From contig JBGUGD010000019.1 in NCBI GenBank assembly GCA_041697335.1, positions 1 to 60,982 of the forward strand: a stretch of 60,982 bases of DNA. Direction: 5' to 3'. The stretch comes from Vampirovibrionaceae bacterium NZW_1234. GTDB taxonomy: Bacteria > Cyanobacteriota > Vampirovibrionia > Vampirovibrionales > JAGQHJ01. Positions 9,194 through 60,982 of the stretch are shown here, one piece after another (within the stretch, counting starts at the first letter, position 1; each line of letters begins with the position of its first letter). The notes beneath the pieces are model-generated. The model did no database searches, was not told the DNA's origin, and worked only from the letters and a program-made list of their open reading frames with translations. Both the position numbers and the translations under genes were made by a program.

Positions 9194-10816
9194 TCAAATT
9201 AACCGACGATGGTTTGGGGATGTTTTTTCTGTCTGATGGGATTCGTGCTGGGGAAGTCGGATGAGTGTAACATTTTGAATCGTCTTGCTGTGAGCCGGAT
9301 ACTTTCTGCGATAGAATAGGGCCAGGGGTTTGTGTTTACTGAGCAGCATGACATTGGGCTTCCATTTTTGGAGGAAAGGCATTCTGGGCTGGTTCAGATG
9401 TAGTGTCAGATAATGGTTTCGCATAAAGTGCGACCCATAAAAATCGAAGCGGGTGTCAATAAAAACCTTGGTTTGGGGCGAACGATAGATGAGGCAACTT
9501 CCGACTTCGGCATCGGTAAAGAGTCTATCGGTTGGTTTCTGTTGAGCGAGATAAGCCTCAATGCCCTTCATGAGACGCTCACATTTGCCTAGTTTTGCAT
9601 GGTGGAACTGCTTGGGCAGAACCGTTGGGGTCACTAAAAATAAAGCTCCCAGGAGGATGCTGGCGGTTAAAATTATTGGAAAAAACATATTGAGTCTTGG
9701 TATAAGGGATTCTGCCCATTTTGGCTTGTGTACGTTAGAGTGCCAGGCATAATAAAGAGCTTGCGGAAGGAGTAAGGCGTAAAATAAAGCGCTCCAAACC
9801 ACAAAGCGCTGAACAAACAGAGTGAAGAGGGTGAAGGTTACCAGGTGTAACCATTGCCAGGGTGCAAGGGTTTGACGAATCTTGGGCAACACGAATAAAA
9901 GGCCCAGAACCAGGCCCAGGTAACACTGGTATGAAAGATAGTGAAAGTTGGGTGATTGAAGCTCGACAATGATATTGTTCATAAACTCCTGAGATGAGAG
10001 ATCTGTGAGATAGGTATAAATACCAATGCCATAGGGATTTATGAGACTGCTTAAGAAAGCTGTACATAGCAAGAGGCCATAGTTTTTCAGACTTTTGGGA
10101 TAACTTTGTGTTTTTTGCTCAGGCGGAAGATAGATTTCGGGAACCCGATGCTGGATAAAGTCACCCAGCGCCATCAATGTCAACGAGAACAGCCCAATAA
10201 TGACACCGGTATGCATATTGCCCCACAAGAGATACAGGCCGCACATAAAGCCGGTGAGTAGGGCTGTTTTTAGTTTTTCTACTCGATATTGCTCCAGAAG
10301 CAGCAATTGAACGGCAAGAAAGATGCTGGTTGCAATCATCGGGCGTAGGCTGATATTGACCGGGATGGTCATTATGACAAGCGTTGTCGGAATAATGCTC
10401 CAGAGCAAGGGAATCTGTTTTAGACGTGATACGGTCAGCGGGAGCAAGCTATAGAGGCAAACTGTAACTATGATGAATGCTCTGAGGAGACTCTGCTCTC
10501 CCAAAGATCGAAAACCTAGAGCCGTAATAACCTCAAAGAGCCATTGATAGACAACCCATGGTTTTTCATGGTGGGTCCATGAAAAAATGTCGTGATGCGG
10601 AATGTGATGATTGTCAAGAATATAGTTGCCTGTCTGAATAATCCAGGCTAAGTCCGGGGTGAAGGCGTGGTCCAGCATCGCAAATGTGAACATGTTCAGG
10701 CTATAAAAAAACACCATGAGGATGGTCAATCCCCCAAAGCTTGTCCACAGAATAAGCTTTAGCTTTTCTCTATATTCGTAAGAAGGAGGTGAAGGTGGTA
10801 GTGGCTTAGGTAGCAT
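9194..10816 (-). CDS. Polytopic membrane protein, GT-C-like glycosyltransferase candidate (paralog 1)
   Basis: More than 10 TM segments; PDLAW..TG..I....IP..DIFSWT, WGNMHTG, NPYG and FIDTRFDFY motifs. Confidence 0.7.
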   Translation of the reverse strand: MLPKPLPPSPPSYEYREKLKLILWTSFGGLTILMVFFYSLNMFTFAMLDHAFTPDLAWIIQTGNYILDNHHIPHHDIFSWTHHEKPWVVYQWLFEVITALGFRSLGEQSLLRAFIIVTVCLYSLLPLTVSRLKQIPLLWSIIPTTLVIMTIPVNISLRPMIATSIFLAVQLLLLEQYRVEKLKTALLTGFMCGLYLLWGNMHTGVIIGLFSLTLMALGDFIQHRVPEIYLPPEQKTQSYPKSLKNYGLLLCTAFLSSLINPYGIGIYTYLTDLSSQEFMNNIIVELQSPNFHYLSYQCYLGLVLGLLFVLPKIRQTLAPWQWLHLVTFTLFTLFVQRFVVWSALFYALLLPQALYYAWHSNVHKPKWAESLIPRLNMFFPIILTASILLGALFLVTPTVLPKQFHHAKLGKCERLMKGIEAYLAQQKPTDRLFTDAEVGSCLIYRSPQTKVFIDTRFDFYGSHFMRNHYLTLHLNQPRMPFLQKWKPNVMLLSKHKPLALFYRRKYPAHSKTIQNVTLIRLPQHESHQTEKTSPNHRRLI

Positions 10817-10854
10817 GGTGTTTACCGTTGACGATTAAGGGCTCGGGTTGGATT

Positions 10855-12474
10855 CTAAATGGGGTTATTGGGGGATGGGTGTTGGCCTTTGGAAGACAAG
10901 GGCTGTCGGCGGAAGAGAATCACTTTGTTGTCTTCATAAATCTTCTGATACTGGGGTAGCTCATTTAACAAGATAGGCAGTGGGTAATTTTTTGAAAGGA
11001 GAACAAGCGTGATGCCCCATTTCTCCATAAAGGGTTCGGTTTCCTTTACCAAAAGTGTCACATTGCGCACGCTTTGGGTGAAGGTTTGTTGATAAAAATC
11101 AAAGCGGGTGTCAAAAAAGATTTTTTCTCGAGAGGAGGCTAAGAGGAGGCAACTGCCAATTTCCGGATCCATGAAAGGTTTATCGTCAACACGTTTTACC
11201 TTCAGATAGGCCTGGATGCCTTTCATTACAGGATCGCACACACCATATTGCGTGGGCAGTTTGTGGGCCGGCCACACCAGTAGGCCGATGCTGGCCAAAC
11301 TGATTAATAGGAAAAACAGGGGTTTGTAAATGTTAAATCCTTCGACAAAGGGATGAGCTTCTTTTGTGGGAGAGTCCCAGTAGGTTTTCCAAAATTGGTA
11401 GAGCGCTTTGGGCAAAATCAATGCATACAGCAGAGCACTCCAAACGACAAATCGTTGCACCAGAAGGGTCGCTAGGGTAAACAAGAGTAGATGCGCTCTT
11501 TCAGCACCTGAGAAAACTCGGTTGCCCTGAGTCATAAGTCCCATGATAACCACGATGAAACCAGCCAGATACCAGTAATTCATCATGTGAAAATTGGGCG
11601 ATTGCAGTTCGATGATGACGCTGTTCAGATAGTGTTGTGAGGCCAGTTCTGCCAGATATTGATATATCCCGATACCATAGGGGTTTAGTAGGCTCCCCAT
11701 AAAGCCAATGCCGATCATCAGGCCATAGTGACGCCATGGTTTTGGGCTTCCCTCAATAGTATGATCACTGGGCTGAACATCTTTTAGATTCTGTCGTTGC
11801 CATAGATCACCAAAAACCCAGGCGATTAACGAGAGAAAACCAATGGTTACGCCCGTGTGCATATTTCCCCAAAGTGCGTACAAAACAAAAAGCGCAATGA
11901 ACAGGCGTTTAAGTGAATATTTTCCGAGACGATACCCATCAATCAGCAGGTATTGGAAGGCTAAACATCCTGTCGTTGCAATCATGGGGCGTAGGCTTGT
12001 GTTCACAGCTGAAAGATACAGCGCGCTGGAACTGATCAACAGGAGAAAGACTGCTGGAATACCGCGTTTTTGGCCATGTAGGTAAGGTAAGATGACATAA
12101 AGCCCAACCATCAGCACAATAAACAGACGAAAGCTCATCGAGTGGCCAAGCGTGTTGTAAATAAACGCATAGCCTACTTCAAAGAGCCATTGATAAACGG
12201 TCCACGCTTTGTCAGGAAAGGTCCATGAAAAAATATCATGGGTTGGAATATGACCATGTTCCAGAATGTATTGCCCTGTGCGAAGTAACCAGGGATTGTC
12301 CGGCGTAAATCCGAAGAAAAGCATGGATTTGCCAAACATGGCAATATTGCCCAGGATGAGGGCAAAGCAAATCATACGCACAAGGGTCCAACCTATCTCA
12401 CCCCAAATAGACCGCCCCATTATTGCGGTGCTATGGGGGGCAAGCTGTGTCGGGCTTTGGTCCGGTGAAGTCAT
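10855..12474 (-). CDS. Polytopic membrane protein, GT-C-like glycosyltransferase candidate (paralog 2)
   Basis: Same motif set as paralog 1 (PDNPW..TG, DIFSWT, WGNMHTG, NPYG, FFDTRFDFY); start chosen at MTSPD. Confidence 0.7.
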   Translation of the reverse strand: MTSPDQSPTQLAPHSTAIMGRSIWGEIGWTLVRMICFALILGNIAMFGKSMLFFGFTPDNPWLLRTGQYILEHGHIPTHDIFSWTFPDKAWTVYQWLFEVGYAFIYNTLGHSMSFRLFIVLMVGLYVILPYLHGQKRGIPAVFLLLISSSALYLSAVNTSLRPMIATTGCLAFQYLLIDGYRLGKYSLKRLFIALFVLYALWGNMHTGVTIGFLSLIAWVFGDLWQRQNLKDVQPSDHTIEGSPKPWRHYGLMIGIGFMGSLLNPYGIGIYQYLAELASQHYLNSVIIELQSPNFHMMNYWYLAGFIVVIMGLMTQGNRVFSGAERAHLLLFTLATLLVQRFVVWSALLYALILPKALYQFWKTYWDSPTKEAHPFVEGFNIYKPLFFLLISLASIGLLVWPAHKLPTQYGVCDPVMKGIQAYLKVKRVDDKPFMDPEIGSCLLLASSREKIFFDTRFDFYQQTFTQSVRNVTLLVKETEPFMEKWGITLVLLSKNYPLPILLNELPQYQKIYEDNKVILFRRQPLSSKGQHPSPNNPI

Positions 12475-12713
12475 AGGGAGTCCGGTTTGTCTTTGGTTCA
12501 ATGATAACGAGGCTTTTAAGTAGCTGTATCCACTATTCAGAGGACATTCTCGCATCCAGGAAGGGGGGTGGTAAAAGTGACTATTGATGAACAAGTAACT
12601 ATAAATTTTTTATGAATGAAACCGGGCCTGAAAACCATCGGGTGCTAGAATCAAACCTAAGCGAACAAGAGCGATGAACAACAGATTAATACTGGCGAAT
12701 GGGAGAAGGTTTG

Positions 12714-13202
12714 ATGTTACGTGTCGGGATGCCGTTGAATACCCCCTATTTACCTCAAAAATCAAATAGACCCGATGAAGAAGAACTCAGGCAGGCCAAG
12801 GCCAAGCGTAAACAGCAGTATCAAGCGCGTTTGGCTCATGTCATTGCCCATGAAAATGCTCATGCCGCTGCAGGTGGGCGCTTTGCAGGGGCACCTGTGA
12901 TTGAAGCCGATGAAACGTCCGGCCATGTCTCAGGTCATGTGCCCATCCGAATGGATTTTGGCAAAACATCAAAGGATGCCCTGAGTAACGCACGCATTAT
13001 TTTTGGCGCTGCAACCGCTGTCTCTGATATGTCTGCAGCTGACTCGGCTGTTGCCGCAGCAGCCTTAAGTATTGGTTACAGCTTGGCCGCCAGTCGAAAA
13101 ATTCAAGAGGAGGCAGCCGAACGGAATGCGCACTCATCTGTTCGGTTCGCCTCCCAGCAGGGGCCTTTTCAGGCGCCAAAACACAATCCGTTTGCCCATT
13201 AA
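12714..13202 (+). CDS. SrpA-related putative metalloprotease-like protein
   Basis: AHENAHAAAGG (HExxH), GHVPI and MSAADSAVAAAA match the SrpA-related pattern; RBS ggagaagg precedes 12714. Confidence 0.65.
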   Translation: MLRVGMPLNTPYLPQKSNRPDEEELRQAKAKRKQQYQARLAHVIAHENAHAAAGGRFAGAPVIEADETSGHVSGHVPIRMDFGKTSKDALSNARIIFGAATAVSDMSAADSAVAAAALSIGYSLAASRKIQEEAAERNAHSSVRFASQQGPFQAPKHNPFAH

Positions 13203-13266
13203 GGGCGCATTCGCTAAACCGCAGATTTAATGCATACTCCCTAGTTCACTCCCCCTCTCTCTGCAG

Positions 13267-13390
13267 GTCGATGCAATACACCTCTTCGCATATAGACTTT
13301 CCGTTGATCTTGGGGCAATCCGAGAGGCAACACGAATGGGTGTGGAAGGACTTTCGTGATGAACCGTATTGCATCGACTTTTTCTTTTTG
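13267..13390 (+). ncRNA. Candidate structured non-coding RNA
   Basis: Perfect 13-bp closing stem 13267-79/13366-78, nested stems, a GCAA tetraloop hairpin at 13308-25 and a 3' U-tract; G-U pairs favour the + strand. Confidence 0.55.
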
Positions 13391-13410
13391 CAGGGTTTCT
13401 TTTAGGAGTT

Positions 13411-14844
13411 TTACTCGGAAATTTCAGTGAATGATGAACGTCGCTGCTGTAAAATCATTTCGCCCGAAGAATCGGGGGGAATCAGATAATTTAAAAGGTC
13501 TGCTGCTGTTTCATTGGCGTGGGTTACACAGTCATTGAGTGACACGCCTTTAAGATAATTGCCTGTAGCAAATAATCCGGGGCTTTGTCGTAAGGCGCCT
13601 TCAATATGACGAACCCTATCCAGATGACCGACTGTGTATTGCGGGATGGCTTCAAAATAGCGGGATACCTGAACCATGGTTGGTTGCAATGATTCTTTCG
13701 GCTGGCCAAAGCTCAAAGCCAGGTCCCGAAGTGTCACGTCGGTTAATTTTTCATCTTCCCAATCAACAATATCGGGCCGGGTTGCACCACCCAGCATGCA
13801 GGTGAGGAGGGCTTGCCCCTGTGGTGCTCGATTGGGGAAGAGGCTACTGGACCAAATACTTCCCAAAAGGTCCAGACCACTTTGTTTGGGGGCTAGAAAC
13901 CCAAAGCCATCCAGTGGATGACGAATTTGTGTGTGTGGTAGTCCCATATGTACCACGGTCAGGGTTGCATAGGGAATGGCTTCCAAAGCCGGAGAAGCAT
14001 CAGGGACGAGTCCAAAGAGCAATTGCGCCGTGGTTTTGGCGGGGGTTGCCAGAAGTATTGCTCTAGCAAGTAGAGTTTCGCCATGTTCCAGCTGAACGTG
14101 ATAGGTGTCATGAACCCGCTCGATACGTTGAACCGAAACTCCCAGACGGATTTGATTGTTGGGGATGCTCTCAGATAGCCCTTGGATCAGGCGCTGCATA
14201 CCGCCATCCAGACTCAATAGCTGGTATTTGGGTTTTCTTCCGGTGCGCTTATTATCCTTACGGCTTGCCATTAAGCCTTTGACGATGCTACCGCTTCGCT
14301 GCTCCCAATGGGCCAGTTTGGGAAAGACGGCTTGGAGGCTCAAGGTTTCAGGATCTCCCGCATACACGCCAGATAGAAAAGGGGCCATAAGATTGTCCAA
14401 AGCCTTCTCCCCTAAGCGCCGACGTGTAAAGTCTGCCACGGTTTCGTCATTGCTGACGGGGTGCGAGCGGAGCCAAGGCTCCTGCATCATCCGAAGTTTT
14501 GCGCCTATGGGTAGCACCGGTGAAGCTAAAAAAGAAAGTGGGTCCGTGGGTAAGGCTGTCAGCTTTTCGTTGAGATAGAGATAGCGCTTTTTAGCCAGCG
14601 GTGCTGTTGGCTCAAGCGGAAGATTCAGTTCCTGACAGAGATCCATCAAGGCCTGGCCTCGGCTGTGCATTGTATTGGGGCCCAATTCCAGCATAAACCC
14701 TTCGTGATTCCGGGTTTGGATCTTGCCACCCAGATAGGGCTCTCTTTCCACCAGGGTTGTTGATAAACCTGCTTTGTGGAGGCGGTGCGCTGCCGTCAAT
14801 CCACAGATGCCACCTCCTATGACGACAACATCAATGGGATGCAA
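13411..14844 (-). CDS. hemY: Protoporphyrinogen/coproporphyrinogen oxidase (HemY-type FAD enzyme)
   Basis: GGGICGLTAA Rossmann motif, ELGPN, GVYAGDP, GFGFLAP, AIPQYTVGH, GVSLNDC. Confidence 0.93.
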   Translation of the reverse strand: MHPIDVVVIGGGICGLTAAHRLHKAGLSTTLVEREPYLGGKIQTRNHEGFMLELGPNTMHSRGQALMDLCQELNLPLEPTAPLAKKRYLYLNEKLTALPTDPLSFLASPVLPIGAKLRMMQEPWLRSHPVSNDETVADFTRRRLGEKALDNLMAPFLSGVYAGDPETLSLQAVFPKLAHWEQRSGSIVKGLMASRKDNKRTGRKPKYQLLSLDGGMQRLIQGLSESIPNNQIRLGVSVQRIERVHDTYHVQLEHGETLLARAILLATPAKTTAQLLFGLVPDASPALEAIPYATLTVVHMGLPHTQIRHPLDGFGFLAPKQSGLDLLGSIWSSSLFPNRAPQGQALLTCMLGGATRPDIVDWEDEKLTDVTLRDLALSFGQPKESLQPTMVQVSRYFEAIPQYTVGHLDRVRHIEGALRQSPGLFATGNYLKGVSLNDCVTHANETAADLLNYLIPPDSSGEMILQQRRSSFTEISE

Positions 14845-15856
14845 CGGCGACTCCTTTGTGATTATCCGGAATGTGCTGCTGAATCTGCTGTTTCACTAAA
14901 TCTGCCAAGGCCGCAATGTATTGCGGGTGAGTGTTGACTGTTTGAGCCCGTTTAAAGTTGGTGATACCCACTTCCTGGGCTAATTCGCCGTAGAGGATGT
15001 CAATCTCGTATAAGGTCTCCAGGTGTTCGGAAACAAAGCTGATCGGGACAACGGCGACATCTTTGATGCCCTCTTTTGCCATTTCTTCAATGACTTCTTC
15101 CGTAGAGGGGCTGAGCCAGGGAATGGGGCCCACTTTACTCTGGAAGGACAGACGCCAAGGGTTTTGGGGGAATGCGTGAGACATCACCAGGCGAATGGTT
15201 TCGTCAATATGCTGTGGGTACGGATCGCCTGTTTTTTTCACGTGACTCTCCGGCAGGCTATGCGCGCTAAAGAGGATGGTAACTTTCTCTTTTGGGCAGG
15301 TCCAGGACGTGTTGTCCATAACTTCTCGAATGGTATCGACAAATGCCGCTTGATAGCCGGGGTGATCATAATAGGCAGGCATTTCCAGAAGTGGCAAATT
15401 GATTTTGTGATTTTTCATCACTTTTTTCAGTTCATTTACGCTGGAGCCCGTTGTAGTGTAAGAGAACTGTGGGTATAAAGGAACGGTAATCAGGTATTCC
15501 ACGCCATCACGCACGGCTCGCTCCAGGGCATCATGGGTAAAGGGATGCCAGTAGCGCATAGCGATATAGGCTTTTACATTGAAGCCTTCGGCTTTCAAGA
15601 GGGATTCCAAGGCATCGGCTTGCGCTTGGGTGTAAGTCATAATGGGAGAGCCACCGCCAATTTTGGCATAGTATGTCGCCACCGACTTATGCCGTGCTGA
15701 TGAAATGAGCTTGGCCAAGGGTTTTTGAAGAAAACGCAAACCAAACAGTGAAATAATGTCCGGGTCAGAGAACAGGTTGTATAAGAAAGGCTGGACCGCT
15801 TTCTGAGAGTCTGGGCCACCCAGGTTTAACAACATTAGTCCGATTTTCGGGGTCAT
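14831..15856 (-). CDS. hemH: Ferrochelatase
   Basis: LLNLGGPD, MRYWHPF, LYPQFS, FSAHSLP, FVSEHLETLYEID. Confidence 0.97.
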   Translation of the reverse strand: MTPKIGLMLLNLGGPDSQKAVQPFLYNLFSDPDIISLFGLRFLQKPLAKLISSARHKSVATYYAKIGGGSPIMTYTQAQADALESLLKAEGFNVKAYIAMRYWHPFTHDALERAVRDGVEYLITVPLYPQFSYTTTGSSVNELKKVMKNHKINLPLLEMPAYYDHPGYQAAFVDTIREVMDNTSWTCPKEKVTILFSAHSLPESHVKKTGDPYPQHIDETIRLVMSHAFPQNPWRLSFQSKVGPIPWLSPSTEEVIEEMAKEGIKDVAVVPISFVSEHLETLYEIDILYGELAQEVGITNFKRAQTVNTHPQYIAALADLVKQQIQQHIPDNHKGVAVASH

Positions 15857-15888
15857 GAGTTCGCTCCTTAAGCCTTGCGTATATTAAC

Positions 15889-17298
15889 CTATAACGTTTT
15901 GGAGAATGTCGGTTTCTCAGGGGCAGTCTTGGGGAGATGGGCATCAAACAACATGGCGATGTTGCGGCTGAAGATTCGCCCCAATGGGGTCAGAACAAAT
16001 CCATCAGGGACTTGATTTAAGAGTTGATCAGCTTCAAAGCCGTCGAGTTGTTCCAGTGCGTCCTTAAAGTAGTGAGAGAATTCGATATCGTAGCAATTCT
16101 CGATCTCCCGATAATGGACCGAACCCCGGCAGAGGATGGAATTAATCACATCACGCCGTAAGACATCATCATCTGTAAGGCTGTACCCTCGCATGGTGGG
16201 CAGAATACCTTGCTCTATGGCTTCATAATAGTGTGCCAGCTTTCGCTGATTTTGGGCATAGTGACGGGTCAGGCCACTTATGGCACTGACGCCGGCGCCA
16301 TAGAGTTCGCTTCCGCCTTTGGTCGTAAATCCCATAAAATTCCGGTGCAGGGTGCCTTCGTCATACGCATGCACCAACTCATCGGTTGGCTTGGCAAAAT
16401 GATCCATGCCGATGTAGAGATAGCCGGCCTGGGTCAACATTTCTAAGGCAGTGGTGAAAATTTTAAATTTTTCGGTCCCTGGTGGCATGGTAGCTTCGTC
16501 AATCGCATTCTGATGCGGGCTTATCCAGGGAACATAGGCAAAATTGTACAAGGCAATGCGATCTGGCGATAGGCGAATCACTTCCTGCAGGGTGGTTTTA
16601 AATGAGTCAACCGTTTGATGTGGCAAGCCGTATATCAAATCAAAATTGACACTGTCAAATTGTAGCTCCCGGCATTGTTTAACCATCGCTTCAGTAAGAT
16701 CCACCGGTTGAATCCGATGAACGGCTTCCTGGACTTTGGCATCAAAATCCTGGACCCCCATACTGATGCGGTTAAAGCCCAGTGCTTTGAGCAGATCAAT
16801 TTGCTCGGCTGTGGTGACCCGGGGATCGACTTCGATGCCGATTTCAGCATCCGGGGCAAAATTAAACCGCTCAGTAAGGTGTTGAAATACCCGGCGCAAC
16901 TGCTCAGGACTGAGATAAGTCGGAGTACCACCACCAAAATGGAACTGGACCACCTGATGGTCCTTATTCAGGAGCTGATGACTCATATCCAACTCTTTGA
17001 AGAGATAGCCCAGATATTTCTCGGCCTGATCTTTTTGCTGGGTAATGACAACATTGCAGCTGCAAAACAGGCATCGCTCCATACAGAAAGGCAGGTGGAC
17101 ATAGAGTGACAGCGGAAAGGGGGTGGGGCGATTCTGATGGACAGAACTTAGGGCCGCCTTAAACTCGTTGGGCCCCACGGAATCTTTCCATACGGGAACA
17201 GTCGGGTAGCTTGTATAACGGGGGCCACTGGTGTTGTATTTTTCCAACAGTGCCTCAGAGACATTGCCGGGTGCCAGGGACACGGTAGACAGAGACAT
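15889..17298 (-). CDS. hemN: Oxygen-independent coproporphyrinogen III oxidase
   Basis: GPRYTSYPT, radical SAM motif CMERCLFC, GGGTPT, IGMDHFA, LHRNFMG. Confidence 0.96.
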   Translation of the reverse strand: MSLSTVSLAPGNVSEALLEKYNTSGPRYTSYPTVPVWKDSVGPNEFKAALSSVHQNRPTPFPLSLYVHLPFCMERCLFCSCNVVITQQKDQAEKYLGYLFKELDMSHQLLNKDHQVVQFHFGGGTPTYLSPEQLRRVFQHLTERFNFAPDAEIGIEVDPRVTTAEQIDLLKALGFNRISMGVQDFDAKVQEAVHRIQPVDLTEAMVKQCRELQFDSVNFDLIYGLPHQTVDSFKTTLQEVIRLSPDRIALYNFAYVPWISPHQNAIDEATMPPGTEKFKIFTTALEMLTQAGYLYIGMDHFAKPTDELVHAYDEGTLHRNFMGFTTKGGSELYGAGVSAISGLTRHYAQNQRKLAHYYEAIEQGILPTMRGYSLTDDDVLRRDVINSILCRGSVHYREIENCYDIEFSHYFKDALEQLDGFEADQLLNQVPDGFVLTPLGRIFSRNIAMLFDAHLPKTAPEKPTFSKTL

Positions 17299-17315
17299 AA
17301 TGGCTAGCTCTCCTG

Positions 17316-18395
17316 TTACGGGGTTGCAAGGGCCAGTGAGGTAGCTTTAATGGTATCAACGACACGTTTGACGTTTTCAACCGGGGTTTGTGGAATGATG
17401 CCATGGCTCAAATTAAAAATATAGCCTTGATTTCCACCTTCCTTGACCATGGCTTGAACGTTCCGGATCAGAACGTCTGGCTTGGCGAAGAGCATGTTGA
17501 AATCCAGATTCCCTTGTAAAGCCACATTTTGACCTAATCGCTGACGAGCCTGAGCGATTGTAGTCAGGCCATCAAGGCTGATGACATCGGCCCCGGTTTG
17601 CGGCAGGTATTCCAGCACATGGCTGGAGCCTTTGACATACAGAATAACCGGCGTCACCTCCCGGTTTAACCCGGCGATGACTTGTTGTTGGTAGGGATGC
17701 ACGAATTCCCGATATAGAGGCTCCGGCAACAACCCGCCCCACGTGTCAAAAAGCTGAACTACCTGGGCGCCTGCCTCGATTTGTGCATTCAGGTAAAGGA
17801 TCACGGTCTTCGCGATTTTATCCAACAAAACGTGCAAGGCTTCGGGCTCATTGTAGAGCATCGTCATAATATCCGTATGATTTCTGGATGTTCCGCCTTC
17901 CACCATATACGTGGCCAAAGTCCATGGGGCTCCAGCAAAACCGATAAGACCGACTTTTGGATATACCGACAAGGCTTGGCGTAATGTGCGTAAAACCTGC
18001 ATGACAAAGCCCGTCTTTTCTTCGGGGTCCGGAATGCAGAGCGCGTCAATTTGCGCCCGGGTGCGAAGCGGTGTGGGCAGATGAGGCCCTTTTTCATTGA
18101 ATTCCAACGTCATCCCCATGGCTTCGACCGGAACCAGAATGTCTGAGAACATAATCACGGCATCCATCCCAAAAGCCGTCAGAGGCTGTAAGGAGACTTC
18201 TGCGGCCAAGTCCGGGGTCTTGCACATGGTCAGAAAATCGGCTTTTTCTCGAATGGCTCGATATTCGGGCATATAGCGGCCAGCCTGGCGCATCATCCAA
18301 ACAGGAGGGCGATCGAGGTGTTCTCTACGGCAAGCCCGCACAATCCTGGGGACGAGCGGGGTAACATCAGACGGAGTGGCGTTCATCATGGACAC
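17316..18395 (-). CDS. hemE: Uroporphyrinogen decarboxylase
   Basis: PPVWMMRQAGRYMPEY, FSDIL, IGFAGAPWTLATY, NLSHGI. Confidence 0.97.
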   Translation of the reverse strand: MSMMNATPSDVTPLVPRIVRACRREHLDRPPVWMMRQAGRYMPEYRAIREKADFLTMCKTPDLAAEVSLQPLTAFGMDAVIMFSDILVPVEAMGMTLEFNEKGPHLPTPLRTRAQIDALCIPDPEEKTGFVMQVLRTLRQALSVYPKVGLIGFAGAPWTLATYMVEGGTSRNHTDIMTMLYNEPEALHVLLDKIAKTVILYLNAQIEAGAQVVQLFDTWGGLLPEPLYREFVHPYQQQVIAGLNREVTPVILYVKGSSHVLEYLPQTGADVISLDGLTTIAQARQRLGQNVALQGNLDFNMLFAKPDVLIRNVQAMVKEGGNQGYIFNLSHGIIPQTPVENVKRVVDTIKATSLALATP

Positions 18396-18949
18396 AATCT
18401 CAGCGGTTTTAATACATCAAAGGCAGCGAGGCCATCACAGGGTCTAGCAGAGGCGACCCGTTGGGGTCCTCAATTGACCTAACCAATGCTAGCACAAACA
18501 CGCATTTATTTCGGGCTTCCTGTCAAACCGGTAAAAAATCAAAGAGGGCCGGTTTAAAACTCCTCCAGCCTTGGGAGGCGTTCAAGCGATTGTGGATGTA
18601 ATATGTATATAATTGTAACGAGAACGCAATTTTGGAGGCGTTGTTGTTTTTATTCTATTACTGGGTAGTGTTTTTAGGAGATGACAGGTATGTTCATGGA
18701 GTTTGACAAACAGCGCCATTCCAAAAGCCGAAATGGTAAGGCCAATGCAAATCATCTAAAAGCATTACTGGCACAGAAACAAGAGGCTCGCCGTATTTTT
18801 GGGCAATACACCCCTTCCTGGCAGTCCTTGCAAACCCTATTTTTAGAGGATCTCATTTTATCCTAGCTCCGAGATAAAATAGGATGACGATTTAGTTCGT
18901 TTCGGATACAATTGATCCTACCGCTATTGTTGATTTATCGAAAGTTAAT

Positions 18950-56816: not shown

Positions 56817-57926
56817 ATGGTCCGGGTTGCTGAATATCGTCCAATTCGAGGCGCCATTGTTTTTCCGGCGGCGGTGAGATCGCCCGCACCGTTGCGATTT
56901 GGCGCCGAGCCAGCGCCGCCCATCCTCCAGACCCGACGGGAGGGGGCGACCCAGTACTTATGTCTCAGCGATCTGGGCAATGCCAACCGACTGTCCCGGC
57001 GAATGATCCATGCGCTGGAGGCGGCCTTTATTCAGGCTGAGAAAGACCCCGGCGTTAAGCGCATTGTGTTGGAAAGCGCCCACGAAAAGCATTTTTCCCC
57101 CGGTGCGGACTTGTTCCCGGAGATGGCTGTGTTAAACCAGTACAACGCCACGCTGGACAAATATCTGCCCTTCGTCCCCAAGAAAGTCCGGCGGACCATG
57201 GCGAGCCTGTGGCTGATTCCTTCGGTCCGGCGCTTCGCCTTGGACGGCTACCGCCTGCACCAGCGCATCGCCAACTCCCCTAAAGTGACGGTGGCCAAGA
57301 TGAACGGCTCGGCTATCGGCGGCGGTGTGGAGCTGGGGCTGGTGTGTGACTATATCATCGCGTCGCCCAAGACCCGACTGGTGCTGCCCGAGGTCAAGTA
57401 TGGGCTGTCTCCGGACTGGGGCGCCACGGAGCGCCTTCCCCAGCGCCTGGGCCGTACCCTGTCCAAGTTCCTGATTCTGGAGGGCGGCCTCATGGCGGAC
57501 AAGGGCATGGACAGCCCGGCAACCCTGTCGGCGGAAGACGCTCAAAAAATCGGCCTGGTGGATGCCGTCGTCCCTGCCGAATCACTGGATGCCTATCTGA
57601 CCCAGGCCTTTGACGCCGGTCAGTTTTCTACCAAGGCCAACCGCCCCAAGACTGCTGTAGCCGTCGACGCCATGGATGCCAAGATTCTGCCTCGCCTTCA
57701 AGGCACCCCCTTTGCGGCCAAGTTTCACCGCTATAAAACCGCTTCGGTGGATGATCTGATGGCCAACGAACTCCGGGGGCTCTACCGCCCCACGGTGGAG
57801 ATGGCCCTGCGCCGCATCGACAACGGCCCCAAGGTCAGCCGGTGGACCGTTGAAAAAGATCTGTTAACCATGTTCGGTTACTTTGCCCGTGTTCATCACG
57901 CCAAGAAGAAAGCCGCAGCCCAATAG
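56817..57926 (+). CDS. Enoyl-CoA hydratase/isomerase (crotonase) family protein with an RFG leader
   Basis: FSPGADL, NGSAIGGGVEL, LPEVKYGL.P; RBS gaggagg. Confidence 0.88.
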   Translation: MVRVAEYRPIRGAIVFPAAVRSPAPLRFGAEPAPPILQTRREGATQYLCLSDLGNANRLSRRMIHALEAAFIQAEKDPGVKRIVLESAHEKHFSPGADLFPEMAVLNQYNATLDKYLPFVPKKVRRTMASLWLIPSVRRFALDGYRLHQRIANSPKVTVAKMNGSAIGGGVELGLVCDYIIASPKTRLVLPEVKYGLSPDWGATERLPQRLGRTLSKFLILEGGLMADKGMDSPATLSAEDAQKIGLVDAVVPAESLDAYLTQAFDAGQFSTKANRPKTAVAVDAMDAKILPRLQGTPFAAKFHRYKTASVDDLMANELRGLYRPTVEMALRRIDNGPKVSRWTVEKDLLTMFGYFARVHHAKKKAAAQ

Positions 57927-57956
57927 CGGGGCAACGAAACAAGGGACGCCTGCTGC

Positions 57957-58493
57957 TTAGAGATCGATCTGAACGGCGTCCTGGGTGTTGTGGAAGTGAT
58001 CCAGTAGCGTATGACTTTCGGCCAGCCCTATCAGACGTTCACGAGTGACATGGTGAAGGTTGGCACCAAGCAGGCCCATGTTAAACCCTTCCGGGGCCGG
58101 TGCTTTTTCCAGATCTGCATCTTCCATCACTCGGGGAGTCACTTTTCCAGCCGCTTGCTGGGCTACGAGGGCTTCTGTAAAGGCTTTTAAATACTGGGCT
58201 TTTCGGCTTAATATGGCCATGGCCAGCTTGGCGACATCCGGGCCATCCACCACCAGGCTATGAAAGGGGTTAATGGGAAAGGCCACGGCCTTGGGCGTCT
58301 CGCCTCCCCCCGGCTGCGAGCGGACCAGCTGATCCACGTGATCCTGAACTTTTGCTTGAAACAACACCTGGGCGTCAGTCATGGCCTTCATGTAGGCCTC
58401 GGACTCCGCCGGGGTCGAATCCGGTTTCCAGACAGGCGGGTTGACTAGGCGCCCTTCAAGACGAGCAACACTGCCAAAGCGAACAGATACCAT
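57957..58493 (-). CDS. Hypothetical protein with an RFG leader
   Basis: MVSVRFG; RBS ggag. Confidence 0.7.
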   Translation of the reverse strand: MVSVRFGSVARLEGRLVNPPVWKPDSTPAESEAYMKAMTDAQVLFQAKVQDHVDQLVRSQPGGGETPKAVAFPINPFHSLVVDGPDVAKLAMAILSRKAQYLKAFTEALVAQQAAGKVTPRVMEDADLEKAPAPEGFNMGLLGANLHHVTRERLIGLAESHTLLDHFHNTQDAVQIDL

Positions 58494-58684
58494 TGGTTTC
58501 TACTCCCATCGAATCATTAGGGTTTCAAAATACCACAAACATAAAAGTACTGAAAACCGGGACCACGATGCTGGCCAATTCTTAGGATTCTCTGAAGATT
58601 GCTCCCGAGGGCTGGACCGCTCATGGGGTCTGTGGGACAATTCGGGCGTTCTGATGGATTCCCCGTGATGTGGATGCCGATCCC

Positions 58685-59059
58685 ATGAAAATCCCTCCCA
58701 TCTGCTGTTCTGCCGCCCGCGCCCTTCGGGCCATACCCAAGGCCAAGCCCGTGGCGACGTTGTATGCTCAAATCGCCAGCGTTCAGCACCAGATTCGTCA
58801 GGCCGAGGCCGACGGGTTGCCGACCGACCAACTGGAGCGTTTGCTTTCTGATGTGCAAAGCAGGCTCAGCTCTACCCTGGCCGGGGTGTCAGAACCCGCC
58901 GACGCTGCCCAAGCCACTGCCGAAATGGTGCCCGAGCCCACCGAGGACCTCCGGGACACCGGAACATCAGACCCCTTCGACCCCTTTGCCAATAGCGACT
59001 CCCTCTCGTCCCCGCCGCCCCCGTCCTCCTGCGGAAGCCGCCTCGATGTCCGGGGCTGA
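58685..59059 (+). CDS. Hypothetical protein
   Basis: Short coiled coil, acidic linker, C-terminal GSRLDVRG. Confidence 0.55.
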   Translation: MKIPPICCSAARALRAIPKAKPVATLYAQIASVQHQIRQAEADGLPTDQLERLLSDVQSRLSSTLAGVSEPADAAQATAEMVPEPTEDLRDTGTSDPFDPFANSDSLSSPPPPSSCGSRLDVRG

Positions 59060-59109
59060 GCCAGGCCGGAGAAACCCCGTGCTATGGGTGTCGTTGTTCA
59101 GATCTTTAC

Positions 59110-59138
59110 TTGGATTTGAAGACACTCTCTGCTAATAT
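59110..59138 (+). promoter_or_regulatory. Promoter of the host tRNA-Leu gene
   Basis: TTGGAT-17 nt-TAATAT with an extended TG, 12 nt upstream of the tRNA 5' half. Confidence 0.55.
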
Positions 59139-59150
59139 CGAGAATCACTT

Positions 59151-59189
59151 GCCCCGGTGGCGGAATCGGTAGACGCGACGGACTTAAAA
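59151..59189 (+). pseudogene. 5' half of tRNA-Leu(UAA), truncated after the anticodon loop (putative attL)
   Basis: GCCCCGG-TG-GCGGAATCGGTAGACGC-G-ACGGA-CTTAAAA followed by CCTGA instead of the required TCCGT. Confidence 0.88.
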
Positions 59190-59303
59190 CCTGAAGCGTC
59201 AACCAAAAGCCGCTCAGGGAGCAAATCTTCAAAAAGTATAGGTGAGACTCAAGTCTCACTTTCTCGAAGAAGATGGGCACCGTATAATGAACTAATCCCT
59301 AAT

Positions 59304-59389
59304 GCCCCGGTGGCGAAATGGCATACGCAAACGACTTAAAATCGTTCACCCGTAAGGGTTTGCCGGTTCAAGTCCGGCCCGGGGCACCA
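59304..59389 (+). tRNA. tRNA-Leu(UAA), complete, with encoded CCA
   Basis: Acceptor GCCCCGG/CCGGGGC, anticodon arm AACGA-CTTAAAA-TCGTT, long variable arm ACCC-GTAA-GGGT, T arm GCCGG-TTCAAGT-CCGGC, ACCA end; TATAAT at 59283. Confidence 0.96.
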
Positions 59390-59472
59390 ATTTCATAAAG
59401 GTTTCGGCCTAAACGAATTGGGTTTGTCTAGTGAAATGAGGTCCTTCGGGTCTCACTCCGAAAGGAGTCACT

Positions 59473-60636
59473 ATGCAAACCCAATTCGCGTCTGTTAATG
59501 AGGCCATCGAATATCTGAAAATCCCACGATCCTCCTTCTTCCGCCTCCGAAAAGAGGGGAAAATCAAGGTGGAGACCCTTTACAAGGGTAAAACGCTGAT
59601 ATATAATATATATCGTATATCAGCAGAGTCATCAAACAACACCGAAACCGACGGCCCTATCGAAGGAGGGTCAGGAATGGCCGTCGATGTAGTAAACTCC
59701 TCTCCCCAAGAGGCGATGCCTCAGATTGTTCCACCGCAAAACCATGCCCAATATCTGAACGACTGGATTTTGTGGCGGGAACAGGGGCTTTATACTCGCC
59801 CTTGGTCTCAGGAATACAAAAGGAACTCCCTACGGTACATCAATAAGTATTTTGAGCGATGGGAGGTGATTTCCAGCAAGCACCTGGAGACATGGTTGAC
59901 GGAAACGCCAGTCATGCAGAAGACCTTGCGGGTCCATAAGCATGCCCCGGTTTCGTCATTCGCCAAGTTTCTGGTCCACAAGGGTCTTCTGAGCCGGGAA
60001 GAGTATCGGAATATCAAGGATCTCTACCCGAAAAAGAGTCCCTACTATCATCCGAAGCAACGGATTATTTACGAAGAGGATCTGGAGGTCATTTTGGAAG
60101 CCGCAGCAACCGATAACGCGCATCATTCCTATAATCGCTTCCTGAACGTGACTCTCATCCGGTTCTTATCGGCAACCGGGCTTCGGGCAAAGGAATTGTG
60201 CGACCTGAAACTAAGTGACTTGCACTTTAGCGACAAGTCCACACGCGCATTTGTCCATGTCCGGTGTGGGAAGGGCGGAAAGGAGCGATACGTGCCCTTC
60301 TCGTTGCAGGCTCAGGAAGCAATCCGGGAATACCTGAAGCATCGGCCAAACGTGGACGATGATCGGCTTTTCTGGGCCTTTAATCCCAAGCATGGTTATG
60401 TGCCCATTAGCCGCGATTGCGTGGTCCGGCGGATGAAGAACGTGAGCGACCGTTGCGGAATACCGTTTTCGGCGCACTCATTCCGACACTACCGGATTAC
60501 GCGCTGGGCAAACAGTCCGAAGATTCCCATTACAATGGTGCAGCTTTGGGCGGGGCATAGCAGCCTGATTGTTACCCAGCGGTATATTCATACCCGGAAT
60601 GAAGAGGCGCTTGCCTTCGCATTCGAGGGGGACTAG
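59473..60636 (+). CDS. Tyrosine recombinase/integrase with an N-terminal excisionase-like HTH
   Basis: TGLRAKE (R), GKGGKER (K), HSFRH, AGHSS, TQRYIH (Y); N-terminal SVNEAIEYLKIPRSSFFRLRKEGKI. Confidence 0.95.
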   Translation: MQTQFASVNEAIEYLKIPRSSFFRLRKEGKIKVETLYKGKTLIYNIYRISAESSNNTETDGPIEGGSGMAVDVVNSSPQEAMPQIVPPQNHAQYLNDWILWREQGLYTRPWSQEYKRNSLRYINKYFERWEVISSKHLETWLTETPVMQKTLRVHKHAPVSSFAKFLVHKGLLSREEYRNIKDLYPKKSPYYHPKQRIIYEEDLEVILEAAATDNAHHSYNRFLNVTLIRFLSATGLRAKELCDLKLSDLHFSDKSTRAFVHVRCGKGGKERYVPFSLQAQEAIREYLKHRPNVDDDRLFWAFNPKHGYVPISRDCVVRRMKNVSDRCGIPFSAHSFRHYRITRWANSPKIPITMVQLWAGHSSLIVTQRYIHTRNEEALAFAFEGD

Positions 60637-60655
60637 CAACCGCTAACCAGCAAGG

Positions 60656-60690
60656 CTCCATCCGGTTTTGGCCGGGTGGAGTTTTGCTTT
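60656..60690 (+). terminator. Terminator after the integrase
   Basis: ctccatccggt-tttg-gccgggtggag followed by ttttgcttt. Confidence 0.75.
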
Positions 60691-60835
60691 ATATCAGGCT
60701 GGAAGAGGGTAAAACTTGGCTCATCTGTTGATAGAACGCCATCAGGAAAAGGCTAAAGCCCATGATGACTTTTAAAATGAAGAGCATAATCAGGATGTTC
60801 AGCAGATGAACGGTTGTGGTGAGCGCCTGTTTCAT
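60689..60835 (-). CDS. 48-aa hydrophobic protein
   Basis: MKQALTTTVHLLNILIMLFILKVIMGFSLFLMAFYQQMSQVLPSSSLI; ATGA overlap with the upstream ORF. Confidence 0.55.
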   Translation of the reverse strand: MKQALTTTVHLLNILIMLFILKVIMGFSLFLMAFYQQMSQVLPSSSLI

Positions 60836-60981
60836 ACTTGCGTCCTCAGATATTTGGCAAACCGTTCCACCTGCCGGGAAAAGAACAGCTCCATATCCAT
60901 CAGGAAGGACAGCAGGAAGCCATCCAGGAGGCTCATCTTTTGCTTGGGCGGGCGGCTATACTGGCCGAAACCGGTCTTGAT
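60832..60981 (-). CDS. 3' end of a hypothetical ORF running off the window
   Basis: Open frame ...MSLLDGFLLSFLMDMELFFSRQVERFAKYLRTQV* with GC3-rich codons. Confidence 0.5.
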   Translation of the reverse strand: MKTGFGQYSRPPKQKMSLLDGFLLSFLMDMELFFSRQVERFAKYLRTQV

Positions 60982-60982
60982 G

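What the first reader, a model, noticed from the sequence alone, without database searches (positions are those of the whole stretch)
59151..59389. Integrative element that breaks the host tRNA-Leu(UAA) and supplies its own recoded copy
Seen: a promoter-bearing, canonical tRNA-Leu 5' half stops exactly after the 7-nt anticodon loop CTTAAAA (59183-89). That loop is flanked by imperfect inverted 11-mers, GACGCGACGGA and the reverse complement of CCTGAAGCGTC (7/11 match). 114 bp downstream is a complete, different tRNA-Leu(UAA) with its own TATAAT, followed by the integrase. Known: tyrosine integrases often cross over in the 7-bp anticodon loop between inverted core sites, but attP normally carries the missing half and restores the gene. 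Inference: here the gene is replaced rather than repaired. The new copy differs at the putative core-binding positions (GACGC to TACGC, ACGGA to AACGA), so it should not be a target for its own integrase. While integrated, the host may depend on the element for UUA decoding, so loss without precise excision would be costly.
Basis: partly seen in the sequence, partly recalled or inferred. Interest (0 to 1): 0.9.

Follow-up and report, generated by a model that had tools for sequence, protein, structure and literature searches.

The report
Prophage splits tRNA-Leu, carries replacement
A mobile element, most likely a prophage, has cut this bacterium's leucine (UUA-reading) tRNA gene in two and carries its own complete copy; this trick was described in 2024 for actinobacterial phages and is seen here in a non-photosynthetic relative of cyanobacteria.

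Summary
Observation confirmed. The 5' half of tRNA-Leu(TAA) ends at the anticodon loop (59183-89); an intact, different tRNA-Leu(TAA) and a tyrosine integrase follow. The displaced 3' half lies on contig C31; the junctions share a 10-bp core, neither rebuilds a tRNA, and a 17-bp arm palindrome found only twice in the genome ties them together. The carried tRNA is the only credible tRNA-Leu(TAA) in the 41 contigs. Two related elements share the layout; one targets and carries tRNA-Leu(CAA) instead; both bear phage genes. This is tRNA-dependent lysogeny as published (PMC10865867), here in Vampirovibrionales; the scan noted the same strategy before in at least eight other windows. What this case adds: the three replacing integrases form one clade nested among relatives that restore the tRNA, and the carried tRNA sits where those relatives have the restored one, which suggests a route of origin. 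'Recoded to escape its own integrase' is plausible but unproven. Dependence of the host is inferred, not tested; the middle of the element is missing from the assembly.

The parts
59110..59138 (+). Putative host tRNA promoter (weak -35, extended -10)
   Evidence: read; not called by the consensus scan; inference
59151..59189 (+). Host tRNA-Leu(TAA) 5' half (host side of attL)
   Evidence: identical to the intact gene of same-family genome G004 over 43 bases
59180..59189 (+). 10-bp common core shared with attR at G000:C31 (loop starting at 9840, minus strand)
59190..59204 (+). Element-side core-type site: inverted imperfect copy of the host D-arm/anticodon-stem 15-mer (10/15)
   Evidence: binding role inferred
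59242..59259 (.). Palindromic arm-type-like site; its 17-bp form occurs only here and 130 bp before attR on C31
   Evidence: 2 hits in 3.70 Mb; similar palindromes in both arms of the restoring element of G034
59283..59288 (+). TATAAT (-10 of the carried tRNA)
   Evidence: invariant in 3 of 3 elements; no -35 called
59304..59389 (+). Element-borne intact tRNA-Leu(TAA) with encoded CCA
   Evidence: only credible TAA gene in G000
59473..60636 (+). Tyrosine integrase, 387 aa, with weak N-terminal HTH_17 (Xis-like) part; catalytic R238-K267-H335-R338-H362-Y371 invariant in 30 aligned relatives
   Evidence: HTH_17 E 0.007, under cut-off
59579..59607 (+). Internal sigma70-type promoter (11/12) upstream of a second start (M69) with a GGAGG site
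   Evidence: similar hexamers at the same place in L022 and L023; function inferred
60832..60981 (-). 3' end of a phage-type deoxynucleoside monophosphate kinase gene, cut by the contig end
   Evidence: 48 of 49 aa identical to the L022 protein, which matches phrog_139; frame

Best explanation
The left end (attL) of an integrated element, most likely a temperate phage, that uses tRNA-dependent integration. SHOWN: a tyrosine-integrase element sits in the anticodon loop of the host tRNA-Leu(TAA); attL and attR share only 10 bp, so the gene is left in two halves; the element carries an intact tRNA of the same anticodon between the crossover and the integrase. INFERRED: the integrase binds the D-arm/anticodon-stem sequence of the host gene and an inverted mimic in its own arm, helped by the palindromes in both arms; the carried tRNA is transcribed from its own -10 box and supplies UUA decoding while the element is integrated; precise excision restores the host gene, whereas deletion of the carried tRNA without excision should be lethal or costly.
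For: 3' half on C31; in-silico attB is a tRNA, attL and attR are not, core 10 bp; 17-bp palindrome only in the two arms; intact gene in G004; single credible TAA gene among 43 ARAGORN genes, the intron-mode C5 call being a mis-fold in coding-like DNA; TTA in 1422 of 1504 long mechanical ORFs, 11.7% of Leu codons; same layout in L022 (Int 86%, TAA) and L023 (Int 66%, CAA), where the carried copy is again the only intact gene of that anticodon found; dNMP kinase, tail-fibre, virion-protein and methyltransferase PHROG hits in the relatives; mechanism shown by experiment in mycobacteriophages (PMC10865867).
Against: attL and attR are on different contigs and the middle is missing: of the phage genes of L022/L023 only the kinase fragment is in C16, so 'prophage' for this copy rests on one shared gene and 87% DNA identity to L022 over 1.8 kb; the C31 end holds a type III restriction gene and an MNT-HEPN pair, as defence islands also do. 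The bin is 94.75% complete and lacks other expected tRNAs (no Glu among 43), so a second TAA gene cannot be excluded. No 3' half was found in the genomes of L022 or L023. G004 has different flanking genes, so it gives the intact gene, not the same empty site. No expression or binding data.
Confidence: 0.88

Rival explanations
1. Same geometry, but the element is a non-phage or decayed defence island and the carried tRNA is now a fixed, domesticated host gene.
For: Structural phage genes of L022/L023 not found in G000; restriction and MNT-HEPN genes at the right end; in L023 about 5 kb of cellular-type genes separate integrase and kinase.
Against: Integrase intact with all catalytic residues; both arms and core intact; 87% identity to the end of a prophage-like element in another family; binned assemblies often drop prophage bodies (own knowledge).
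Confidence: 0.2
2. The half tRNA is exon 1 of a group I intron-containing tRNA-Leu(UAA), as in cyanobacteria (recalled), with the element inside the intron.
For: Phylum Cyanobacteriota; the break is in the anticodon loop.
Against: No Rfam intron match in 57900-60982 at E<=1; the whole loop is duplicated at both junctions; 36 of 37 relative loci examined hold an uninterrupted TAA gene, the other a TAG gene.
Confidence: 0.01
3. The 59304 gene is the host's native or restored tRNA and the half upstream is a relic, or the junction is an assembly artefact.
For: In restoring relatives the host tRNA lies at this very distance from the integrase.
Against: The half, not the full gene, matches the same-family host gene (100% of 43 vs 77%); the full gene and the 114-bp spacer travel with the integrase into another family (94% over 285 bp); the junction recurs in L022 and L023.
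Confidence: 0.02

Closest known systems
tRNA-dependent lysogeny of actinobacteriophages (Fionnbharth K4, cluster L, Cain, Gaia; Guerrero-Bustamante and Hatfull 2024, PMC10865867; read parts 1-5 of 8: abstract, introduction, results, discussion)
   Same: Tyrosine integrase, attB in the anticodon loop, about 10-bp core, no rebuilt tRNA, cognate element-borne tRNA; close relatives that restore the gene; isotype switches among related phages; a Leu target (Gaia, CAA).
   Different: Host is Vampirovibrionales; target Leu(TAA); the tRNA lies inside the attP arm between core and integrase (in Fionnbharth it overlaps another gene on the opposite strand, in Gaia it is downstream of int); integrase has a Xis-like HTH N-terminus rather than a stated lambda-like arm-binding domain; nothing tested by experiment here.
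Sinorhizobium meliloti Lo5R7ANS-like prophages (PMC11476347; passages read; also cited in PMC12429752, passages read)
   Same: Prophage splits a tRNA-Leu (UAG) in its central part and carries a divergent cognate tRNA; genomic evidence only.
   Different: Alphaproteobacterial host, other anticodon; carried tRNA resembles that of distant species.
Restoring members of the same integrase family (G016 Leu-TAG, G034 Leu-CAA, L041 Leu-CAA, G008/G014 Thr)
   Same: 39-52% identical integrases, tRNA directly upstream of int, arm palindromes in G034.
   Different: They carry the tRNA 3' half (54-bp repeats in G016 and G034) and leave the host gene whole.

Membership tests
tRNA-dependent lysogeny (PMC10865867) | Tyrosine integrase with attB overlapping a host tRNA gene | tested here: met
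   PF00589, catalytic residues invariant; break at anticodon loop
tRNA-dependent lysogeny (PMC10865867) | Short (about 10 bp) common core; no tRNA rebuilt at attL or attR | tested here: met
   10-bp core; ARAGORN finds 0 genes in attL and attR, 1 in rebuilt attB
tRNA-dependent lysogeny (PMC10865867) | [quoted passage not shown] | tested here: met
   matched anticodon in 3 of 3 elements, including the CAA one
tRNA-dependent lysogeny (PMC10865867) | Host tRNA is single-copy | tested here: inconclusive
   only credible TAA gene in 41 contigs, but the bin is 94.75% complete and lacks other tRNAs
tRNA-dependent lysogeny (PMC10865867) | Element is a temperate phage | tested here: inconclusive
   phage genes in the two closest relatives; only the kinase fragment in this assembly
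tRNA-dependent lysogeny (PMC10865867) | Element tRNA is expressed and required for viable integration | not testable with these tools
   needs genetics; no RNA holder listed
Classical tRNA-restoring integration | attP carries the displaced tRNA half and restores the gene | tested here: not met
Group I intron-split tRNA-Leu(UAA) | Group I intron structure in the anticodon loop | tested here: not met
   uninterrupted genes in relatives

The most novel reading that the evidence does not exclude
These elements record how tRNA-dependent integration arises: a restoring ancestor completed the tRNA half in its attP into a whole gene (capture of attL with a promoter), a new crossover site evolved 150-170 bp upstream as an inverted mimic of the host D-arm, and the carried gene was swapped for a host-lineage tRNA of the new anticodon when the target changed (TAA vs CAA), while keeping changes next to the loop that stop the integrase cutting it. 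Support: nesting of the replacing clade, the same position upstream of int (76-83 bases between, against about 51-88 in restoring relatives), and T-arm/acceptor ends that follow the host isotype (TAA element 25/26 to host TAA vs at most 18/26 to CAA; CAA element 24/26 to host CAA vs at most 22/26 to TAA).
Probability: 0.35. Interest if true: 0.55.

Novelty: new member of a known kind. Interest (0 to 1): 0.36.

Why it matters
It extends tRNA-dependent integration to non-photosynthetic Cyanobacteriota and gives a compact natural module (core, arm, tRNA, integrase within 1.5 kb) in a family holding both restoring and replacing members. The 2024 paper says the evolutionary link between the two modes is unclear and even speculates that the carried tRNA can serve as a second attB; this family makes both points testable. 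For annotation it warns that the only tRNA-Leu(TAA) of such a genome is a passenger of a mobile element, and that repeat-based island finders will miss it. The principle itself is not new.

Tried and rejected
Group I intron reading: rejected. ARAGORN's intron-mode Leu(TAA) on C5: rejected as a mis-fold with a mismatched acceptor stem. C6 as the missing body of the element: its end gene is an unrelated helicase-like protein, and no contig-end overlaps were found for C16, C31 or C6. Single-protein scans of metagenome and viral contigs found no relative; profile scans gave one family member (L041) among 18 metagenome loci and only distant integrases (22-34%) among 79 viral loci; none of L042-L137 showed the half-plus-full layout. 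Exact search for a 27-base part of the carried tRNA in viral contigs: 0; phage records: 19 matches, 76-86%. 3' halves in the genomes of L022 and L023: not found (incomplete bins, L022 ends 6.4 kb after int). The genome of L023 looks like a mixed bin (title Firmicutes; contig syntenic with G000 C30; another contig has a Firmicutes-like tRNA cluster). Sequencing runs: no RNA holder listed. Contigs of 4 runs (at most 2 samples, possibly the source) cross the junction with 0 differences but with only 22 and 7 letters on the short side, under the tool's 31-letter rule; one host contig leaves the window at 59189 with 20 unshown letters, at most a hint of an empty site. RNA hairpin between half and arm is not above chance (z -1.0 to -1.5). 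The two small C31 proteins have no homologue in G000 or the fetched loci; the larger one none in 48 other order genomes. Paper searches with no hit: 'Melainabacteria prophage integrase tRNA-Leu', two phrase searches; 'Vampirovibrio prophage tRNA' listed 5 papers, none on this by title and abstract start. Supplements of the papers were not read. First tree run timed out; FastTree used instead, without a test of alternative topologies.

Full report
Observation. The window is contig C16 of a 41-contig, 3.70-Mb genome. At 59151-59189 lies the first half of a tRNA-Leu gene ending with the anticodon loop; 114 bases on is an intact tRNA-Leu(TAA) at 59304-59389, then a 387-aa tyrosine integrase (59473-60636). 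The inverted match round the loop is 7/11, or 10/15 extended, which random genomic sequence reaches at 0.006 and 0.0006. Its two promoters are not called by the consensus scan, but the TATAAT before the carried tRNA is invariant in the three elements aligned.

The other end. The displaced 3' half is on contig C31, minus strand, loop at 9840. The two junctions share 10 bp; ARAGORN finds a tRNA in the rebuilt attB and none in attL or attR. A 17-bp palindrome occurs exactly twice in the genome, 59 bp inside attL and 130 bp before the C31 junction, which assigns this junction to the element. A same-family genome (G004) has the intact gene: 43/43 bases identical to the 5' part and one difference in the 3' half, though its flanking genes differ. 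Inside the C31 end are a type III restriction gene fragment and an MNT-HEPN pair. The middle is not assembled.

Is the host dependent? The carried gene is the only Leu(TAA) among 43 ARAGORN genes; an intron-mode call on C5 is a mis-fold. TTA occurs in 1422 of 1504 long mechanical ORFs. By wobble rules (own knowledge) the CAA tRNA does not read UUA. The bin is 94.75% complete and lacks some other tRNAs, so sole supply is likely, not proven.

Relatives. Two genomes hold close integrases. L022 (86%; titled Vampirovibrionales; same order as this genome) has half-TAA, arm, full TAA, integrase. L023 (66%) has half-CAA, arm, full CAA, integrase. In each the carried copy was the only intact gene of that anticodon found, and no 3' half was found. 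Both continue into a dNMP kinase, a phosphoesterase and a tail-fibre-like gene, and the L023 contig into a large virion-like protein and a methyltransferase; the window ends in the same kinase. So the element is probably a prophage. A profile of 30 integrases hit 7 of 401 class genomes at 1e-60: this one, L022's, and five others. Of these five, G016 (Leu-TAG) and G034 (Leu-CAA) are restoring elements with 54-bp 3' repeats, G008 and G014 have an intact Thr tRNA directly after host genes, and G020 has a tRNA 3' half; metagenome locus L041 has a Leu(CAA) 3' half upstream of its integrase. In a FastTree tree of 34 proteins (327 columns; 22 without known context; P0001, P0005 and P0016 left out as duplicates of loci, and P0023-25, P0027, P0030-33 not used) the three replacing integrases lie in one clade (support 0.96) nested among the restoring ones.

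Origin of the carried tRNA. It lies 76-83 bases before the integrase start, where restoring relatives have the restored tRNA or the attP half (about 51-88 bases). Its last 26 bases match host TAA genes of the order at up to 25/26 (the present host 22/26, CAA genes at most 18/26), and the CAA element's match host CAA genes at up to 24/26. This fits completion of an old attP half into a whole gene and renewed capture on a change of target, but position and similarity do not prove the route.

Recoding. For: among 22 distinct host TAA genes from 37 loci (one, L164, probably from a foreign contig) the motif mirrored in the element's arm is nearly invariant, and 2 of the carried gene's 5 departures from 90%-conserved columns fall in it; its anticodon stem differs too, and it matches the host left arm at 10/15 and the right at 4/15. 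Against: it keeps 9 of the 10 core bases; the same D-loop variant is native in another Cyanobacteriota family (L203), so it may be borrowed, not tailored; the CAA element keeps the motif and changes only the stem; and the 2024 paper speculates that carried tRNAs can act as second attB sites. I give self-immunity about even odds.

Mechanism. Integration crosses over in the loop and leaves two halves (shown by the junctions). The carried tRNA supplies UUA decoding (inferred). Excision by the intact integrase, perhaps with its Xis-like N-terminal form and an internal promoter for the shorter form (inferred), would restore the gene; loss by deletion would not.

Comparison and verdict. This is tRNA-dependent lysogeny as defined in PMC10865867 (parts 1-5 of 8 read), also seen in Sinorhizobium prophages at tRNA-Leu(UAG) (PMC11476347, passages; PMC12429752, passages). 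The three sequence-level criteria are met; single copy and phage nature are inconclusive; requirement is untested. I found no report for Vampirovibrionia in searches. The scan's earlier notes list eight similar cases on other DNA (unchecked) and none resembling this locus. A real, clean, new member of a known kind; interest 0.36.

Noticed in passing
L001 (G000:C31) 9840-8760, minus strand: Three tRNA-Leu(TAA) 3' halves in tandem, 399 and 577 bp apart, each of the first two followed by one small orphan gene (97 and 143 aa, GC 38-42%, N-terminal 'RFG/RFS' motif) placed so that the host tRNA promoter would read into it in the empty state: looks like an array of single-gene cassettes added at the tRNA. 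The third half carries a short insertion and is followed by what reads as a degenerate 3' half of another tRNA.
   Followed up: partly
L003 (G004) 1598-1656; G000 C39, C26, C22, C32: Displaced tRNA 3' halves are common in these genomes: a Phe half directly behind the Leu(TAA) gene in G004; two halves each for Phe, Val(CAC) and Ile in G000, one Phe interval holding a single gene.
   Followed up: partly
window 59473-59700: Xis-like HTH fused in frame to the integrase, with a strong internal promoter (11/12) and a ribosome-binding site before M69: two products from one ORF, conserved in L022 and L023.
   Followed up: partly
L001 10074-10738: MNT-HEPN (HepT-like) pair inside the element next to attR; HepT toxins are recalled to cut tRNA 3' ends, so the element may be stabilised twice, by toxin-antitoxin and by tRNA dependence.
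   Followed up: no
L023 7451-12144: About 5 kb of cellular-type genes (release factor 3, arsenate-reductase-like, UppP-like; names from reading the translations) between integrase and phage kinase.
   Followed up: no
L148 (G014) 9283-18709: tRNA-Thr(TGT) and tRNA-Thr(CGT) with similar downstream DNA bracket a decayed integrase of this family and T7-like-looking phage genes.
   Followed up: no
L145 8528-9841 and L168 1663-2796: The same ATPase-like gene lies next to tRNA-Leu(TAG) in two genomes.
   Followed up: no
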